Source: Escherichia coli (lineage in GTDB: Bacteria; Pseudomonadota; Gammaproteobacteria; Enterobacterales; Enterobacteriaceae). Taken from it: a stretch of DNA of 64,000 nt. A program made the translations under genes and the position numbers. Positions 1-61,048 of this stretch are shown in pieces. A model generated the notes under the pieces. The model ran no database searches and had not been told where the DNA came from. It saw nothing but the letters and a program-made list of their open reading frames with translations. The DNA lies in assembly GCF_003018115.1 (NCBI RefSeq), contig NZ_CP027457.1; one strand, written 5' to 3'. The first letter of the stretch is position 1. Each line of letters starts with the position of its first letter.

Positions 1-1983
1 AAGCGCACCGGTTTTCATCTACCGGTGTTTTTGTATTCCGAACATGCTGTTGAATTACCTGCGGGCGTTACGGCGGTAATCAACGGCAACGAGCAGCAGT
101 GGCTGGAGCTGGAATCCGCAGCCTGTCAGTATGAAGAGAATTTGCTGCCACCGTTTTATGACACGCTGACGCAGTACGTTGAGATGGGCAACAGCACCTT
201 TGCTTGCCCTGGACATCAACATGGTGCGTTTTTTAAAAAGCATCCTGCCGGACGCCATTTTTACGATTTCTTTGGTGAGAACGTCTTTCGCGCCGATATG
301 TGTAATGCTGACGTAAAATTGGGCGATCTGCTTATTCATGAAGGATCGGCGAAAGATGCGCAGAAATTCGCAGCCAAAGTCTTTCATGCCGATAAAACCT
401 ATTTTGTGCTGAACGGCACATCGGCAGCGAATAAAGTGGTGACGAATGCGCTGTTAACGCGTGGCGATCTGGTGCTCTTCGACCGTAACAACCATAAGTC
501 GAATCATCACGGCGCGCTGATTCAGGCGGGGGCGACGCCGGTCTATCTGGAAGCTTCACGTAACCCGTTTGGTTTCATTGGCGGTATTGATGCGCACTGT
601 TTTAATGAAGAGTATCTGCGCCAGCAAATTCGCGACGTTGCGCCAGAAAAAGCTGAGTTGCCGCGCCCGTTTCGCCTGGCGATTATTCAGCTGGGAACCT
701 ATGACGGCACTGTCTATAACGCCCGTCAGGTGATCGATACCGTTGGGCATCTGTGTGATTACATTCTGTTTGATTCCGCGTGGGTCGGTTATGAACAATT
801 TATCCCGATGATGGCGGATAGCTCGCCGCTGCTGTTAGAACTTAACGAAAACGATCCGGGGATTTTTGTGACCCAGTCGGTGCACAAACAGCAGGCTGGA
901 TTCTCACAGACGTCGCAGATCCATAAAAAAGATAACCATATCCGCGGACAGGCGCGTTTTTGCCCGCATAAGCGGTTGAATAACGCCTTTATGCTCCATG
1001 CTTCTACCAGCCCTTTCTATCCGCTGTTTGCTGCACTGGATGTTAACGCCAAAATTCATGAAGGGGAGAGTGGGCGTCGGCTGTGGGCTGAGTGCGTTGA
1101 GTTGGGTATTGAGTCGCGCAAGGCTATTCTTGCGCGCTGTAAGCTGTTCCGCCCGTTTATCCCGCCCGTTGTTGATGGCAAATTGTGGCAGGATTATCCG
1201 ACATCAGTGTTAGCCAGCGACCGCCGTTTTTTCAGTTTTGAGCCGGGGGCGAAGTGGCACGGCTTTGAAGGATATGCCGCGGATCAGTATTTTGTTGATC
1301 CGTGCAAGCTGTTACTCACTACACCAGGTATCGATGCCGAAACCGGCGAATATAGCGACTTTGGCGTTCCGGCGACGATTCTGGCGCACTATCTGCGTGA
1401 GAACGGCATTGTGCCGGAGAAGTGCGATCTCAACTCCATTCTGTTCTTATTAACTCCGGCGGAAAGCCACGAGAAGCTGGCACAACTGGTGGCGATGCTG
1501 GCGCAATTTGAACAGCATATTGAGGATGACTTGCCGCTGGTTGAGGTGTTGCCGAGCGTTTATAACAAATATCCGGTGCGCTATCGCGACTACACCCTGC
1601 GCCAGTTGTGTCAGGAGATGCACGATCTGTATGTCAGTTTCGACGTCAAAGACCTACAAAAAGCGATGTTCCGCCAGCAGAGTTTCCCGTCAGTGGTGAT
1701 GAACCCCCAGGATGCGCATAGCGCTTATATTCGCGGTGACGTGGAGTTGGTGCGGATTCGTGATGCCGAAGGGCGAATTGCGGCAGAAGGGGCGTTGCCT
1801 TATCCACCTGGCGTGCTTTGCGTGGTACCCGGGGAAGTCTGGGGTGGGGCGGTTCAACGTTATTTCCTTGCACTGGAAGAAGGGGTGAATTTGTTGCCGG
1901 GATTTTCGCCGGAGCTGCAAGGTGTTTATAGCGAAACCGATGCGGATGGCATGAAACGGTTGTACGGTTATGTGTTGAAGTAA
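1..1983 (+). CDS. speC: Ornithine decarboxylase SpeC, 5'-truncated by window edge (frame open to position 1)
   Basis: ORF 25..1983 translation recognised as the C-terminal ~650 aa of a PLP-dependent Orn/Lys/Arg decarboxylase; no stop between position 1 and the first ATG; position next to nupG matches K-12 order. Confidence 0.93.
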   Translation, partial: KRTGFHLPVFLYSEHAVELPAGVTAVINGNEQQWLELESAACQYEENLLPPFYDTLTQYVEMGNSTFACPGHQHGAFFKKHPAGRHFYDFFGENVFRADMCNADVKLGDLLIHEGSAKDAQKFAAKVFHADKTYFVLNGTSAANKVVTNALLTRGDLVLFDRNNHKSNHHGALIQAGATPVYLEASRNPFGFIGGIDAHCFNEEYLRQQIRDVAPEKAELPRPFRLAIIQLGTYDGTVYNARQVIDTVGHLCDYILFDSAWVGYEQFIPMMADSSPLLLELNENDPGIFVTQSVHKQQAGFSQTSQIHKKDNHIRGQARFCPHKRLNNAFMLHASTSPFYPLFAALDVNAKIHEGESGRRLWAECVELGIESRKAILARCKLFRPFIPPVVDGKLWQDYPTSVLASDRRFFSFEPGAKWHGFEGYAADQYFVDPCKLLLTTPGIDAETGEYSDFGVPATILAHYLRENGIVPEKCDLNSILFLLTPAESHEKLAQLVAMLAQFEQHIEDDLPLVEVLPSVYNKYPVRYRDYTLRQLCQEMHDLYVSFDVKDLQKAMFRQQSFPSVVMNPQDAHSAYIRGDVELVRIRDAEGRIAAEGALPYPPGVLCVVPGEVWGGAVQRYFLALEEGVNLLPGFSPELQGVYSETDADGMKRLYGYVLK

Positions 1984-1986
1984 GAA

Positions 1987-2026
1987 TAAAAAAAACGGGT
2001 CGCCTTCTGGCGACCCGTTTTTCTTT
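1987..2026. terminator. Bidirectional intrinsic terminator between convergent speC and nupG
   Basis: A-tract, GC-rich hairpin cgggtcgcc-ttct-ggcgacccg, then T-tract. Confidence 0.7.
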
Positions 2027-2032
2027 GCGTAA

Positions 2033-3289
2033 TTAGTGGCTAACCGTCTGTGTACCTGTCGGGACACGAACGTGTTTATATTTGAACATCGCCATGAACG
2101 CGAAGGCCAGAACCACGGAGTAACCAGCGAAAATCAACCATACGGTCTGCCAGTCGGTAATGCCGTTTTGGGTGTACATCTCAACCACTTTACCGCTCAC
2201 GATGCCGCCGAGGATACAGCCGAAGCCGTTGGTCATCATCAGGAACATCCCTTGCGCACTGGCGCGAATCGCCGGGCTAACTTCTTTTTCGACAAACACC
2301 GAACCAGAGATGTTGAAGAAGTCGAACGCACAGCCGTAAACAATCATCGACAGAACCAGCAGTACGGTGCCGAACGGAGTCGGGTCGCCGTAAGCAAACA
2401 GCGCAAAACGCAGGATCCACGCCACGATACTGATCATCATTACGTTCTTAATGCCGTAGCGGCTTAAGAAGAACGGGATGGTCAGAATGAACAGGGTTTC
2501 AGAGATCTGCGAAATCGACATGATGATTGACGCATGCTGCACAATAAAGCTGCTGGCAAACATCGGATCTTTGTCGAAGCTGTGCAGGAAGGTATTACCG
2601 AACATGTTGGTAATCTGCAGTTCCGCGCCCAGCAGCATTGAGAAGATGAAGAAGATTGCCATACGCTTGTTTTTAAACAGCGCGAATGCATCGAGGCCCA
2701 GCAGGGTTGTCCAGCTCTGATTCGCTTGCTGTTTAGCAACCGGAATATGCGGCAGAGTCAGGGTAAACAGAACCAGAATGGCGGAAAGTGCTGCGCCAAT
2801 ATACAGCTGCATGTGGCTTAATTCGAAGCCAGACAGGCTCACCACCCACATTGCCATGATAAAGCCGATGGTGCCCCAGATACGGATTGGCGGGAAGTCA
2901 GTAACGATATCCATCCCGGCATTTTGCAGGCGATAGTAAGAGATGGTGTTGATTAACCCAAGCGTTGGCATATAAGCAAACGAGTTAATCAATATCACAA
3001 GGAACATCGCTTCCGGCGTCGTGACCTGTGCCGCCATGAACAGCGTGATAGCGCCAATGGTGTGGCAAATGGCATATACCCATTTCGCACTTAACCATTT
3101 GTCGGCCACAATCCCCAGCAGCGCAGGCATAAAGACCGCGGCGATACCCAGTGAGCTATAAACTGCGCCAATAGAAGCACCGTCAAACTTCAGGGTAACA
3201 AACATATAGGAACCGAGGGTCGTCAGCCAACTTCCCCACAGACAGAACTGCAGAAAAGAGAGGATTTTCAGCTGCAGCTTAAGATTCAT
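2033..3289 (-). CDS. nupG: Nucleoside:H+ symporter NupG (MFS)
   Basis: ORF 2033..3337; start placed at MNLKLQLKIL (418 aa); polytopic membrane protein matching NupG. Confidence 0.93.
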   Translation of the reverse strand: MNLKLQLKILSFLQFCLWGSWLTTLGSYMFVTLKFDGASIGAVYSSLGIAAVFMPALLGIVADKWLSAKWVYAICHTIGAITLFMAAQVTTPEAMFLVILINSFAYMPTLGLINTISYYRLQNAGMDIVTDFPPIRIWGTIGFIMAMWVVSLSGFELSHMQLYIGAALSAILVLFTLTLPHIPVAKQQANQSWTTLLGLDAFALFKNKRMAIFFIFSMLLGAELQITNMFGNTFLHSFDKDPMFASSFIVQHASIIMSISQISETLFILTIPFFLSRYGIKNVMMISIVAWILRFALFAYGDPTPFGTVLLVLSMIVYGCAFDFFNISGSVFVEKEVSPAIRASAQGMFLMMTNGFGCILGGIVSGKVVEMYTQNGITDWQTVWLIFAGYSVVLAFAFMAMFKYKHVRVPTGTQTVSH

Positions 3290-30042: not shown

Positions 30043-30071
30043 GCACCAGATGCGATGCGCACGGGTAAAAC

Positions 30072-30350
<279 letters not shown>

Positions 30351-30360
30351 CCACCATGCC

Positions 30361-57757: not shown

Positions 57758-58990
57758 ATGGCAAAGGTATCGCTGGAGAAAGACAAGATTAAGTTTCTGC
57801 TGGTAGAAGGCGTGCACCAAAAGGCGCTGGAAAGCCTTCGTGCAGCTGGTTACACCAACATCGAATTTCACAAAGGCGCGCTGGATGATGAACAATTAAA
57901 AGAATCCATCCGCGATGCCCACTTCATCGGCCTGCGATCCCGTACCCATCTGACTGAAGACGTGATCAACGCCGCAGAAAAACTGGTCGCTATTGGCTGT
58001 TTCTGTATCGGAACAAACCAGGTTGATCTGGATGCGGCGGCAAAGCGCGGGATCCCGGTATTTAACGCACCGTTCTCAAATACGCGCTCTGTTGCGGAGC
58101 TGGTGATTGGCGAACTGCTGCTGCTATTGCGCGGCGTGCCGGAAGCCAATGCTAAAGCGCACCGTGGCGTGTGGAACAAACTGGCGGCGGGGTCTTTTGA
58201 AGCGCGCGGCAAAAAGCTGGGTATCATCGGCTACGGTCATATTGGTACGCAATTGGGCATTCTGGCTGAATCGCTGGGAATGTATGTTTACTTTTATGAT
58301 ATTGAAAACAAACTGCCGCTAGGCAACGCCACTCAGGTACAGCATCTTTCTGACCTGCTGAATATGAGCGATGTGGTGAGTCTGCATGTACCAGAGAATC
58401 CGTCCACCAAAAATATGATGGGCGCGAAAGAAATTTCACTAATGAAGCCCGGCTCGCTGCTGATTAATGCTTCGCGCGGTACTGTGGTGGATATTCCGGC
58501 GCTGTGTGATGCGCTGGCGAGCAAACATCTGGCGGGGGCGGCAATCGACGTATTCCCGACGGAACCGGCGACCAATAGCGATCCATTTACCTCTCCGCTG
58601 TGTGAATTCGACAACGTCCTTCTGACGCCACACATTGGCGGTTCGACTCAGGAAGCGCAGGAGAATATTGGCCTGGAAGTTGCGGGTAAATTGATCAAGT
58701 ATTCTGACAATGGCTCAACGCTCTCTGCGGTGAACTTCCCGGAAGTCTCGCTGCCACTGCACGGTGGGCGTCGTCTGATGCACATCCACGAAAACCGTCC
58801 GGGCGTGCTAACTGCGCTGAACAAAATCTTCGCCGAGCAGGGCGTCAACATCGCCGCGCAATATCTACAAACTTCCGCCCAGATGGGTTATGTGGTTATT
58901 GATATTGAAGCCGACGAAGACGTTGCCGAAAAAGCGCTGCAGGCAATGAAAGCTATTCCGGGTACCATTCGCGCCCGTCTGCTGTACTAA
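57758..58990 (+). CDS. serA: D-3-phosphoglycerate dehydrogenase
   Basis: 410 aa, NAD Rossmann motif plus C-terminal ACT domain. Confidence 0.98.
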   Translation: MAKVSLEKDKIKFLLVEGVHQKALESLRAAGYTNIEFHKGALDDEQLKESIRDAHFIGLRSRTHLTEDVINAAEKLVAIGCFCIGTNQVDLDAAAKRGIPVFNAPFSNTRSVAELVIGELLLLLRGVPEANAKAHRGVWNKLAAGSFEARGKKLGIIGYGHIGTQLGILAESLGMYVYFYDIENKLPLGNATQVQHLSDLLNMSDVVSLHVPENPSTKNMMGAKEISLMKPGSLLINASRGTVVDIPALCDALASKHLAGAAIDVFPTEPATNSDPFTSPLCEFDNVLLTPHIGGSTQEAQENIGLEVAGKLIKYSDNGSTLSAVNFPEVSLPLHGGRRLMHIHENRPGVLTALNKIFAEQGVNIAAQYLQTSAQMGYVVIDIEADEDVAEKALQAMKAIPGTIRARLLY

Positions 58991-59010
58991 TTCCCCTTCT
59001 CTGAAAATCA

Positions 59011-59041
59011 ACGGGCAGGTCACTGACTTGCCCGTTTTTTT
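59011..59041 (+). terminator. serA intrinsic terminator
   Basis: acgggcaggtc-N-gacttgcccgt hairpin followed by T7. Confidence 0.8.
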
Positions 59042-59171
59042 ATCCCTTCTCCACACCGTTGCCGCGTTGCGCATTCTACTTTGCGAGTCTGCTCCAGAAA
59101 ATAAATCAAAGTCAGATCAATGCGTTGTGTTTATTTAATGGGGATTTACGATGGCAGGACAGCATAGGGCT

Positions 59172-59330
59172 GTAACGGTAAAGCCCTCACCGAAGCGAGG
59201 GCTTGAAGGAGAAGGGTTATGATGCGACTTGTCATCATACTGATTGTACTGTTACTCATAAGTTTCCCAGCTTATTAACAGTCAGTCTCAGGGGAGGAGT
59301 CATCCTCCCTTACCCTTACTCACTAAATTA
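59172..59330 (-). ncRNA. Inferred Sib-type antisense sRNA opposite ibs copy 1 (approximate ends)
   Basis: Sib antitoxins are ~140-nt antisense RNAs covering the ibs ORF; minus-strand hairpin gccctcgcttcggtgagggc then UUU lies just beyond the ibs 5' end. Confidence 0.35.
59219..59278 (+). CDS. Ibs-family type I toxin (19 aa), copy 1, variant with Pro17
   Basis: atgatgcgacttgtcatcatactgattgtactgttactcataagtttcccagcttattaa = MMRLVIILIVLLLISFPAY; GGAGA RBS 6 nt upstream. Confidence 0.7.
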   Translation: MMRLVIILIVLLLISFPAY

Positions 59331-59360
59331 GGTCAAAGAATCAACGATGTCAATCAGGGC

Positions 59361-59428
59361 GATGCGGGATGTATCGCCCTGAACCGATCATTTGGATGCG
59401 GGATGTATCGCCCTGAACCGATCATTTG
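59361..59428 (+). repeat. Perfect 34-bp tandem direct duplication
   Basis: gatgcgggatgtatcgccctgaaccgatcatttg occurs twice back-to-back (59361-59394, 59395-59428). Confidence 0.95.
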
Positions 59429-59597
59429 ATAGACACTTCATCGCCCACGTTTACTGCCGTAATTAATCCCTTATCCCTGCAATGTGTGTCTGTCTTACAT
59501 GACGTTTTACGAGTGCGCTCGAAGAAAAAATTTAAAGGTAGATCAATGCATTGTGCATATTTAAAGAGAGTTTACGATGGCAGGGCAGCATGGGGCT

Positions 59598-59756
59598 GTA
59601 ACGGTAAAGCCCTCACCGAAGCGAGGGCTTGAAGGAGAAGGGTTATGATGCGACTTGTCATCATACTGATTGTACTGTTACTCATAAGTTTCAGCGCTTA
59701 TTAACAGTCAGTCACAGGGGAGGAGCAATCCTCCCTTACCCTTACTCACTAAATTA
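59598..59756 (-). ncRNA. sibC: Inferred SibC-type antisense sRNA opposite ibs copy 2 (approximate ends)
   Basis: Same repeat architecture as copy 1, 426 bp downstream. Confidence 0.35.
59645..59704 (+). CDS. ibsC: Ibs-family type I toxin IbsC (19 aa), copy 2
   Basis: atgatgcgacttgtcatcatactgattgtactgttactcataagtttcagcgcttattaa = MMRLVIILIVLLLISFSAY. Confidence 0.75.
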   Translation: MMRLVIILIVLLLISFSAY

Positions 59757-59804
59757 GGTTAAAGAATCAACGATGTCAATCAGGGCGATGCAGGTGTGTC
59801 GCCC

Positions 59805-60353
59805 TCACCACTCCCAGACTTTCGACGGTGTAACCACCGCAGGAAGAGGGATATCCCACTCTTCAACGGGGAGTTTTTCCACCAACTGACAATCATGCGC
59901 ATAACCCACCGGTTGCATTTTATAGTGCTGCCAGTTTTGTAAGGTCCGATCATAAAAACCACCGCCCATTCCCAGGCGCTGGCCGTACTCATCAAAGGCG
60001 ACCAGCGGTGTGATCAACACGTCTAATCGGGAAAGGGGTAGCACGTCACGCACATCCAATTTTGGCTCATGGATCTTCAACCTGTTCATCACCAGTTCGC
60101 TTTGCGGATGGTAATTCAGGAACAGCAAATTACCGGCACTAAAGGGATGCAAAACTGGAAGATATACGCGCTTACCGGCGCGCCAGAGTTGTTCTATGAG
60201 TGGCTGGGTGTCGAGTTCGCCATCAAAAGAGAGGAATACAGCGACCGTATGTGCCATCACCACCGGGGGATAAGTCATCATCCGGGTAGCGGCTTGTTGA
60301 CCCATTTCCTGCTGTTGTTCCGGCGTTAACGTACGACGACGTTGCCGAATCAT
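59805..60353 (-). CDS. fau: 5-formyltetrahydrofolate cyclo-ligase family protein Fau (YgfA)
   Basis: ORF 59805..60551; start set at MIRQRRRTLTPEQQQEM (182 aa); downstream of ssrS as in K-12. Confidence 0.88.
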   Translation of the reverse strand: MIRQRRRTLTPEQQQEMGQQAATRMMTYPPVVMAHTVAVFLSFDGELDTQPLIEQLWRAGKRVYLPVLHPFSAGNLLFLNYHPQSELVMNRLKIHEPKLDVRDVLPLSRLDVLITPLVAFDEYGQRLGMGGGFYDRTLQNWQHYKMQPVGYAHDCQLVEKLPVEEWDIPLPAVVTPSKVWEW

Positions 60354-60424
60354 TTTGCGGATTTCTTGTCGGGATAATGTCAGTGGGAGTTCTGGTAGTT
60401 GCGTCATGGCTGGTGCCAGATAAG

Positions 60425-60611
60425 AAGGGAATCTCCGAGATGCCGCCGCAGGCTGTAACCCTTGAACCCTTGGTTCAAGGTGAATGTGTCGTCGCAGTTT
60501 TAAGGCTTCTCGGACGGACCGAGCATGCTCACCAACCGCGGAGCGCCACATTCTTGTGGTATGAAATATCGGCTCAGGGGACTGGCCCGCTTGCGAACAT
60601 CTCAGAGAAAT
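60425..60611 (-). ncRNA. ssrS: 6S RNA
   Basis: Minus-strand sequence reads AUUUCUCUGAGAUGUUCGCAAGCGGGCCAGUCCCCUGAGCCGAUAUUUCAUACCACAAGAAUGUGGCGCUCCGCGG...GGCAUCUCGGAGAUUCCCU, matching E. coli 6S RNA; between zapA and fau. Confidence 0.92.
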
Positions 60612-60652
60612 TTTGTCTTCACGGTTACTCTACCACAGTAAACCGAAAAGTG

Positions 60653-61048
<396 letters not shown>

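What the first reader, a model, noticed from the sequence alone, without database searches (positions are those of the whole stretch)
59361..59428. Perfect 34-bp tandem duplication on the right flank of ibs/sib copy 1
The sequence gatgcgggatgtatcgccctgaaccgatcatttg occurs twice back-to-back with no mismatch, implying a very recent slippage or duplication. It lies where the Sib promoter or ibs 3' region of copy 1 is expected, and the matching flank of copy 2 is divergent. It could alter antitoxin expression for copy 1.
Basis: seen in the sequence. Interest (0 to 1): 0.3.

Follow-up and report, generated by a model that had tools for sequence, protein, structure and literature searches.

The report
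Rare 34-bp duplication beside Sib antitoxin promoter
A 34-base stretch of non-coding DNA between two copies of a small E. coli toxin/antitoxin gene pair is present twice in a row in this strain and in one other sequenced strain; it is a real but ordinary and probably harmless length variant.

Summary
GATGCGGGATGTATCGCCCTGAACCGATCATTTG occurs exactly twice head to tail at 59361-59428, with no mismatch and no partial third copy. The locus is the E. coli serA-fau (ygfA) intergenic region. Here it carries two ibs/sib type I toxin-antitoxin modules. Copy 2 is the K-12 ibsC/sibC orthologue.

The duplication lies in the spacer between the modules, at -44 to -111 from the Sib copy-1 start site (59317, minus strand). 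It is 7 bp upstream of the intact TTGACA -35 hexamer. It is also 44 nt or more beyond the modelled 3' end of the ibs1 mRNA. So it is outside both transcripts and outside the 35-bp core promoter.

At least 1869 of 5426 complete E. coli genomes hold the single-unit form. The duplication junction occurs in only one, isolate AB66. AB66 differs from the window at 371 sites over 33.8 kb. The allele is therefore real (not an assembly error), inherited, rare, and not private to one strain.

The breakpoints show no microhomology, and the left one falls inside a conserved 12-bp hairpin.

It is most likely a neutral indel polymorphism. An effect on Sib1 expression is not excluded, but nothing supports it. 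Interest is low.

The parts
59361..59394 (.). 34-bp unit 1, the promoter-proximal copy. Its position corresponds to the single unit of other genomes.
   Evidence: Alignment with single-unit genomes.
59395..59428 (.). 34-bp unit 2, the extra copy relative to single-unit genomes. Which of the two is 'new' cannot be told.
   Evidence: The junction 59394|59395 was found in 1 of 5426 genomes.
59354..59382 (.). 12-bp-stem hairpin TCAGGGCGATGC-GGGAT-GTATCGCCCTGA abutting the Sib1 -35 hexamer. The left breakpoint of the duplication (59360|59361) lies inside its 5' arm.
   Evidence: Folds; arm coordinates. Conserved in other genomes, with a G.U to G-C change in a second haplotype. Not scored as an intrinsic terminator.
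59405..59416 (.). Second copy of the hairpin 3' arm (GTATCGCCCTGA), created by the duplication. It has only a 5-nt remnant of a 5' arm next to it.
59325..59353 (-). Sib copy-1 promoter: TTGACA (59353-59348), 17-nt spacer, TAATTT (59330-59325). Not touched by the duplication.
   Evidence: Read from the sequence and positioned. It is homologous to the copy-2 promoter, with 1 difference in 36 nt. The SibC 5' end is fixed by the Han 2010 primers. The generic promoter scan did not call it because the -10 matches only 3 of 6.
59177..59317 (-). Sib copy-1 antitoxin RNA, 141 nt by homology with SibC, +1 A at 59317.
   Evidence: Rfam RF00113 at 137.6 bits. The published SibC 5'-end sequence and the +141 probe match at these coordinates.
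59219..59278 (+). ibs copy-1 toxin ORF, 19 aa, MMRLVIILIVLLLISFPAY.
   Evidence: Sequence. Annotated as an Ibs family toxin at the same place in AB66.
59383..59505 (.). Spacer between the two ibs/sib repeat units. It is present only in genomes with two modules, and the distal 46 bp of the duplication (59383-59428) lie in it.
   Evidence: Large repeat 59080-59368 versus 59506-59794, 90% identity, spacing 426. Alignment.
59603..59743 (-). Sib copy 2, the orthologue of K-12 SibC. Its promoter is at 59751-59779.
   Evidence: Rfam at 134.6 bits. Published SibC probes NPSC8-29, NPSC46-68 and NPSC+141, and the ibsC+159 primer, match exactly.
59645..59704 (+). ibs copy 2 (IbsC). The mapped ibsC mRNA start corresponds to 59585.
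59805..60407 (-). fau (ygfA), 5-formyltetrahydrofolate cyclo-ligase. Its stop codon is where homology between the copy-1 and copy-2 right flanks ends.
   Evidence: AB66 annotation transferred by coordinates; ORF.
57758..58990 (+). serA, the left boundary of the locus. Its terminator is at 59010-59036.

Best explanation
This is a real, inherited and rare 34-bp tandem duplication, an insertion/deletion polymorphism in non-coding DNA. The ancestral state is one unit. The unit consists of the last 20 bp of the ibs/sib copy-1 repeat (hairpin loop and 3' arm) plus the first 14 bp of the inter-copy spacer. A single replication or repair error copied it once more, without any flanking microhomology. 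The adjacent 12-bp hairpin may have favoured this.

The duplication lies outside the Sib1 RNA, outside the modelled ibs1 mRNA and outside the sigma-70 core promoter of sib1. It leaves the 77 bp upstream of the Sib1 start unchanged and only pushes more distal spacer DNA 34 bp further away. The most likely consequence is none: the variant is neutral or nearly so.

Shown: existence, exact structure, position relative to the mapped or homology-placed transcript ends, polarity (one unit versus two), rarity, and presence in a second strain. Inferred: neutrality, and the mechanism of origin.
For: Exact 2.0-copy repeat, not expected by chance.

The junction occurs in exactly 1 of 5426 complete E. coli genomes, by megablast and by word-11 blastn. 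The collinear single-unit form occurs in at least 1869 genomes. It is present in all five single-unit genomes aligned, from different lineages, with otherwise identical flanks in three of them. The closest haplotype to a de-duplicated 1495-nt query is single-unit (OkiPb01695, 99.8%).

AB66 carries the identical duplication but differs from the window at 371 of 33,840 aligned positions, and is identical over 59232-60760.

Published SibC/ibsC primers and probes place Sib +1 at 59743 for copy 2, hence 59317 for copy 1. They place the modelled ibs 3' end at the same point (PMC2943612). The duplication therefore spans -44 to -111.

For sibD, a 35-bp minimal promoter gave a similar amount of NAD-capped SibD RNA to a 189-bp promoter, and only sigma-70 drove sibD transcription in vitro (PMC12956327).

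No promoter-like or terminator-like site is found in or created by the repeat. The main hairpin is kept in folds of both alleles.
Against: No expression data exist for this allele.

The sibD promoter result comes from a paralogue on a plasmid, and the text quantifies the NAD-capped RNA rather than total SibD.

The 3' end of ibs mRNA is only predicted from a transcript length of about 160 nt, so longer read-through ibs1 transcripts could include the repeat.

The duplicated segment includes a conserved hairpin arm and a GATC site, which could in principle matter.

A perfect 34-bp tandem should be able to collapse by slippage, yet it is kept in two diverged strains. That is compatible with neutrality but does not prove it.

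Reads were not available.
Confidence: 0.85

Rival explanations
1. The duplication is a regulatory change. By doubling a segment upstream of the sib1 promoter (a hairpin arm, a GATC site, a possible protein site), or by altering insulation from transcription coming from the copy-2 side, it changes Sib1 antitoxin or ibs1 toxin levels in this lineage.
For: The position is immediately upstream of the -35 hexamer, from -44. The hairpin next to the -35 is conserved, with a pair-strengthening change in another haplotype. The duplication adds an alternative 3' arm. The allele persists in two diverged strains.
Against: The core promoter and 77 bp upstream are unchanged. The sibD 35-bp promoter suffices. 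No promoter or terminator motif is created. The allele is present in 1 of about 1870 two-module genomes, so there is no sign of spread or recurrence. No regulator is known to bind upstream of sib promoters (own knowledge).
Confidence: 0.08
2. The duplication is an assembly or consensus artefact and the real genome has one unit.
For: Reads could not be inspected. The allele is very rare.
Against: The identical two-unit structure is present in an independent complete assembly of a different strain, AB66, with 371 differences over 33.8 kb. A 34-bp unit with unique flanks is not a typical assembler failure (own knowledge).
Confidence: 0.02
3. It is a contingency-type repeat whose copy number switches frequently by slippage and toggles expression (phase variation).
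For: Perfect head-to-tail copies are substrates for slippage (own knowledge).
Against: Only two states are seen, and the two-unit state occurs in one genome of 5426. No 3-copy or other alleles appeared in the junction searches or in the sampled alignments. The repeat is not in a promoter spacer or an ORF.
Confidence: 0.03
4. It is a footprint of a mobile element, either a target-site duplication left after excision or an attachment-site remnant.
For: None beyond the presence of a direct repeat.
Against: The two units abut with no intervening bases. 34 bp is far longer than the usual IS target duplications of 2-14 bp (own knowledge). No genome sampled carries an insertion at this point.
Confidence: 0.01

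Closest known systems
ibs/sib (QUAD) type I toxin-antitoxin repeats of E. coli, in particular ibsC/sibC between serA and ygfA (fau)
   Same: The surrounding locus is this system: two Rfam SIB_RNA matches, each with an antisense 19-aa ibs ORF. Copy 2 matches the published SibC/ibsC primers exactly. Tandem duplication of whole modules in one intergenic region, and strain-to-strain variation in their number, are described in PMC2887945.
   Different: The 34-bp repeat is not a module and not part of either RNA. It is a small secondary duplication in the spacer, upstream of the sib1 promoter.
Short tandem duplications (indel polymorphisms) produced by replication misalignment or template switching in bacteria
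   Same: Head-to-tail, perfect, a single extra copy, derived from a single-copy ancestral allele.
   Different: Classical slipped mispairing uses short flanking direct repeats. Here the register extends by 0 bp on both sides. One breakpoint lies inside a hairpin arm, which suggests, but does not show, a structure-assisted event.
Phase-variable (contingency) promoter repeats
   Same: A repeat close to a promoter.
   Different: It lies outside the -35/-10 spacer, has a long unit, shows only two alleles, and shows no evidence of switching.

Membership tests
Sib antitoxin RNA / ibs-sib type I TA module (Rfam RF00113) | Match to the SIB_RNA covariance model above the gathering score, with an antisense ibs ORF of about 19 aa | tested here: met
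   Met for the two modules at 59203-59353 and 59629-59779 (137.6 and 134.6 bits against 56). ibs ORFs are at 59219-59278 and 59645-59704.
Sib antitoxin RNA / ibs-sib type I TA module (Rfam RF00113) | The feature in question (the 34-bp units) lies within the Sib RNA or the ibs mRNA | tested here: not met
   Sib1 spans 59317-59177. The modelled ibs1 mRNA ends near 59317. The Rfam match ends at 59353. The repeat starts at 59361.
Tandem duplication / VNTR-type length polymorphism | Head-to-tail copies of one unit | tested here: met
   Period 34, 2.0 copies, 100% identity.
Tandem duplication / VNTR-type length polymorphism | Copy number differs between strains at the same locus | tested here: met
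   One unit in at least 1869 genomes and in five aligned genomes. Two units in the window and in AB66.
Slipped-strand mispairing between flanking short direct repeats | Microhomology at the two breakpoints (a partial extra copy extending the period) | tested here: not met
   Left and right extension of the period-34 register are both 0 bp.
Phase-variable contingency repeat | Repeat located in a promoter spacer or coding frame, so that copy number changes expression | tested here: not met
   The repeat is at -44 to -111, upstream of the -35 hexamer, and in no annotated ORF.
Phase-variable contingency repeat | Many length alleles in the population, or heterogeneity within a culture | tested here: not met
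   Population level: two alleles only, the longer in 1 of 5426 genomes. Within-culture heterogeneity is not testable with these tools.
Intrinsic (Rho-independent) terminator, for the hairpin partly duplicated | G+C-rich stem-loop followed by a T run | tested here: not met
   The stem is present. No T run follows on either strand, and the scan reports only the serA terminator in 58950-59850.
Sigma-70 promoter created by the junction | -35 and -10 hexamers at 16-18 nt spacing in or across the repeat | tested here: not met
   0 promoter-like sites in 58950-59850. Note that the scan also misses the genuine sib promoters because their -10 (TAATTT) matches only 3 of 6.

The most novel reading that the evidence does not exclude
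The extra unit doubles a functional upstream element of the sib1 promoter. Candidates are the hairpin arm that may insulate the promoter from incoming transcription, a GATC-containing site, or a site for an unknown binding protein. This would shift the Sib1/ibs1 antitoxin-to-toxin ratio, giving a lineage-specific re-tuning of one type I toxin-antitoxin module that has been kept in at least two diverged strains.
Probability: 0.05. Interest if true: 0.25.

Novelty: new member of a known kind. Interest (0 to 1): 0.06.

Why it matters
It matters little. At most it is a convenient strain or lineage marker: a 34-bp length difference, detectable by PCR, in the serA-fau spacer. It is also a natural allele with which to ask whether DNA upstream of -44 has any influence on a sib promoter. 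Its value here is mainly negative. The eye-catching perfect repeat is shown to be a real but ordinary polymorphism outside the functional parts of the toxin-antitoxin module, so it need not be pursued as a regulatory novelty.

Tried and rejected
1. Junction scans. I searched for the exact 25-nt junction in the GTDB species-representative genomes and in JGI metagenome contigs; both gave 0. The control 28-mer of the single-unit allele also gave 0 in both. These collections therefore do not hold this spacer haplotype, and the negative results say nothing about frequency. Only the 5426 complete E. coli genomes were informative.

2. Generic promoter/terminator scan. It found nothing in the ibs/sib region, not even the sib promoters, because its -10 threshold is too strict for TAATTT. 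I placed the promoter by homology with published SibC ends instead.

3. Fozo et al. 2008 (PMC2597788), the primary Sib/Ibs paper, is not held. Its content is used only through citing papers.

4. Hit H127 (TB06051) looked like a second length variant, with a 1647-bp span for a 1495-nt query. It proved to be an ordinary two-module, single-unit locus, and the extra span was an artefact of joining pieces across the two paralogous copies.

5. Rejected origins. A 33-bp slippage on the GAT triplets would give CATTT|GATG, not the observed CATTTG|GATG. A transposon footprint does not fit: there are no intervening bases and the length is implausible. A REP/BIME element is unlikely: at up to 3 mismatches the unit occurs only at these two positions in the window, the 97-nt query containing it found at most 2 places per genome, and the real REP-like array in the window is elsewhere (30068-30352).

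Full report
**Observation**

The window reads ...tcaatcagggc|GATGCGGGATGTATCGCCCTGAACCGATCATTTG|GATGCGGGATGTATCGCCCTGAACCGATCATTTG|atagacac... The two 34-mers are at 59361-59394 and 59395-59428.

- Tandem Repeats Finder gives period 34, 2.0 copies, 100% matches, score 136. The repeat finder agrees.
- A search with up to 3 mismatches finds only these two copies in the window, and none in 100 shuffles.
- The period-34 register cannot be extended by a single base on either side. The array is exactly two units, and the breakpoints share no microhomology.
- It is one of only two tandem arrays scoring 50 or more in the whole window. The other is a 113-bp REP/BIME-like array at 30068-30352.

**Context**

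The locus is the E. coli serA-fau (ygfA) intergenic region.

- serA is at 57758-58990 (+), with its terminator at 59010-59036.
- Two Rfam SIB_RNA matches lie on the minus strand, at 59203-59353 and 59629-59779 (137.6 and 134.6 bits).
- 19-codon ibs ORFs lie on the plus strand at 59219-59278 and 59645-59704.
- fau is on the minus strand, ending at 59805. 6S RNA (ssrS) is at 60428-60611.
- The two ibs/sib modules form a 289-bp direct repeat: 59080-59368 versus 59506-59794, 90% identical, 426 bp apart.

Published oligonucleotides for K-12 SibC/ibsC (PMC2943612) match copy 2 exactly. This fixes several positions.

- SibC +1 is at 59743 and its 3' end is at 59603.
- ibsC +1 is at 59585.
- The authors' modelled ibsC 3' end (+159) is at 59743.
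- By the 426-bp offset, and because the first 16 nt of the RNA are identical, Sib copy 1 runs from 59317 (+1, A) to 59177.
- The modelled ibs1 mRNA runs from 59159 to about 59317.

The sib1 promoter, read on the minus strand, is TTGACA (59353-59348), a 17-nt spacer, then TAATTT (59330-59325). It differs from the copy-2 promoter at 1 of 36 positions. The generic promoter scan does not call either sib promoter, because TAATTT matches only 3 of 6. The assignment therefore rests on the mapped RNA ends and on homology.

**Where the repeat sits**

- Relative to the Sib1 start, unit 1 spans -44 to -77 and unit 2 spans -78 to -111.
- Relative to ibs1, the repeat begins 83 nt after the stop codon and 44 nt after the modelled mRNA end.
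- It is therefore outside both RNAs and outside the core promoter.
- It begins inside the 5' arm of a 12-bp hairpin: TCAGGGCGATGC / GGGAT / GTATCGCCCTGA, 59354-59382. This hairpin directly abuts the -35 hexamer.
- The unit consists of the last 5 nt of that arm, the loop, the whole 3' arm and 12 further nt.
- So the unit straddles the end of the ibs/sib repeat (homology with copy 2 ends at ...CGCCCT, 59380) and the beginning of the copy-1-specific spacer.
- In copy 2 the homologous hairpin overlaps the fau stop codon.

**Comparison with other genomes**

- Against 5426 complete E. coli genomes, a 50-nt probe centred on the junction hits exactly one genome, isolate AB66 (NZ_OZ547461.1). This holds both with megablast and with the more permissive word-11 blastn.
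- A 97-nt query in which the repeat was reduced to one unit matches collinearly (80% coverage or more) in 1869 genomes. It is 100% identical in O145 RM9872.
- Alignments were made of O145 RM9872, TB06051, OkiPb01695, 89-3156 and CFSAN064035. Each shows a clean 34-bp gap relative to the window and AB66. In the first three the flanks are otherwise identical.
- The best match to a 1495-nt de-duplicated haplotype is a single-unit genome: OkiPb01695, 99.8%.
- One unit is therefore the ancestral and overwhelmingly common state, and two units is a derived, rare allele.
- The remaining roughly 3500 genomes have a single ibs/sib module, as in K-12, and lack the spacer altogether.

**Age and authenticity**

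AB66 carries the same two perfect units, but it is not the same strain.

- Over 33.8 kb it differs from the window at 371 positions, in a mosaic pattern.
- It is identical over 59232-60760.
- Six differences cluster in 59156-59231.
- Two independent assemblies of different strains with the same structure make an assembly artefact very unlikely.
- The allele is also not private to one isolate. It is either older than the split of these haplotypes or was passed between them by recombination.
- With local divergence of a few SNPs per kb, about 0.1 differences are expected between two 34-bp units. Perfect identity therefore does not imply a very recent event.

**Likely consequence**

- The duplication leaves everything from the Sib1 start to -77 unchanged. 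It displaces more distal spacer DNA by 34 bp.
- For the paralogue sibD, only sigma-70 supported transcription in vitro. A 35-bp minimal promoter gave a similar amount of NAD-capped SibD RNA to a 189-bp promoter (PMC12956327).
- No promoter-like or terminator-like motif is present in or created by the repeat.
- The main hairpin is retained in minimum-free-energy folds of both alleles on both strands. The extra unit adds only weak local pairings.
- The most probable reading is a neutral indel polymorphism.
- Caveats: the sibD data come from a paralogue on a plasmid; the ibs 3' end is only modelled from a transcript of about 160 nt; no expression data exist for this allele.

**Origin**

- Classical slipped mispairing between flanking short direct repeats is not supported, because there is 0 bp of microhomology.
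- A slip on the GAT triplets would have given a 33-bp period, which is not what is observed.
- A transposon footprint is not supported. There are no intervening bases, the length is implausible, and no related genome sampled has an insertion at this point.
- The left breakpoint inside a strong hairpin arm suggests a structure-assisted template switch or a repair event. This is inference only.

**Relation to what is known**

- The ibs/sib system, its tandem arrangement within one intergenic region, and strain-to-strain differences in module number are established (PMC2887945; PMC4147584).
- The 34-bp duplication is not part of that system's functional parts. It fails the tests for belonging to the Sib RNA, to a terminator, to a new promoter, or to a contingency repeat.
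- It is a new (rare) instance of a very ordinary kind of variant.

**Dead ends**

- Junction scans of GTDB representatives and JGI metagenomes were negative, but so were the single-unit controls, so they are uninformative.
- Fozo et al. 2008 is not in the library.
- An apparent second length variant (H127) was a hit-joining artefact.

**Verdict**

Interest is low (0.06).

Noticed in passing
window 59156-59231: The six differences between the window and AB66 in the 851-bp locus are clustered in 76 bp covering the ibs1 5' UTR and start (the 3' half of Sib1). They change Ibs1 from MMRLV... to MMRFF... in AB66. The next 1.5 kb (59232-60760) is identical. This looks like a gene-conversion or recombination patch in the toxin/antitoxin pairing region.
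   Followed up: partly
window 59354-59382 and 59780-59805: A hairpin directly abuts the -35 hexamer of both sib promoters. In copy 2 it overlaps the fau stop codon. A second haplotype family (89-3156, CFSAN064035) has GTATC changed to GCATC, turning a G.U pair into G-C. It is possibly a fau 3' structure or an insulator, but it is not scored as an intrinsic terminator.
   Followed up: partly
window 59080-59805: The serA-fau region holds two ibs/sib modules here and in at least 1869 of 5426 complete E. coli genomes. K-12 and most others hold one, corresponding to copy 1's left flank joined to copy 2's right flank. In TB06051 both modules encode an identical IbsC.
   Followed up: partly
window 59386-59389 and 59420-59423: Each 34-bp unit contains a GATC (Dam) site, so the duplication produces two GATC sites 34 bp apart upstream of the sib1 promoter. 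There is no evidence that this matters.
   Followed up: no
window 30068-30352: A tandem array of period 113 bp, 2.5 copies, 92% identity. Its unit contains REP-like palindromes (GATGCGGCGTGAACGCCTTATC..., GCCGGATAAG...), so it is probably a BIME.
   Followed up: no
window 30000-64000 versus L003 (AB66): Divergence from AB66 is strongly mosaic: 74 differences in the 38-39 kb bin, 40 in 63-64 kb, and 0-4 in many other 1-kb bins. This is the pattern expected from recombination tracts.
   Followed up: no
whole window: The window is not identical to any of the 5426 RefSeq complete E. coli genomes; the best over its last 19 kb is AB66 at 99.5%. Its junction 25-mer is also absent from the GTDB species representatives. 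The source strain therefore lies outside the collections that could be searched.
   Followed up: partly
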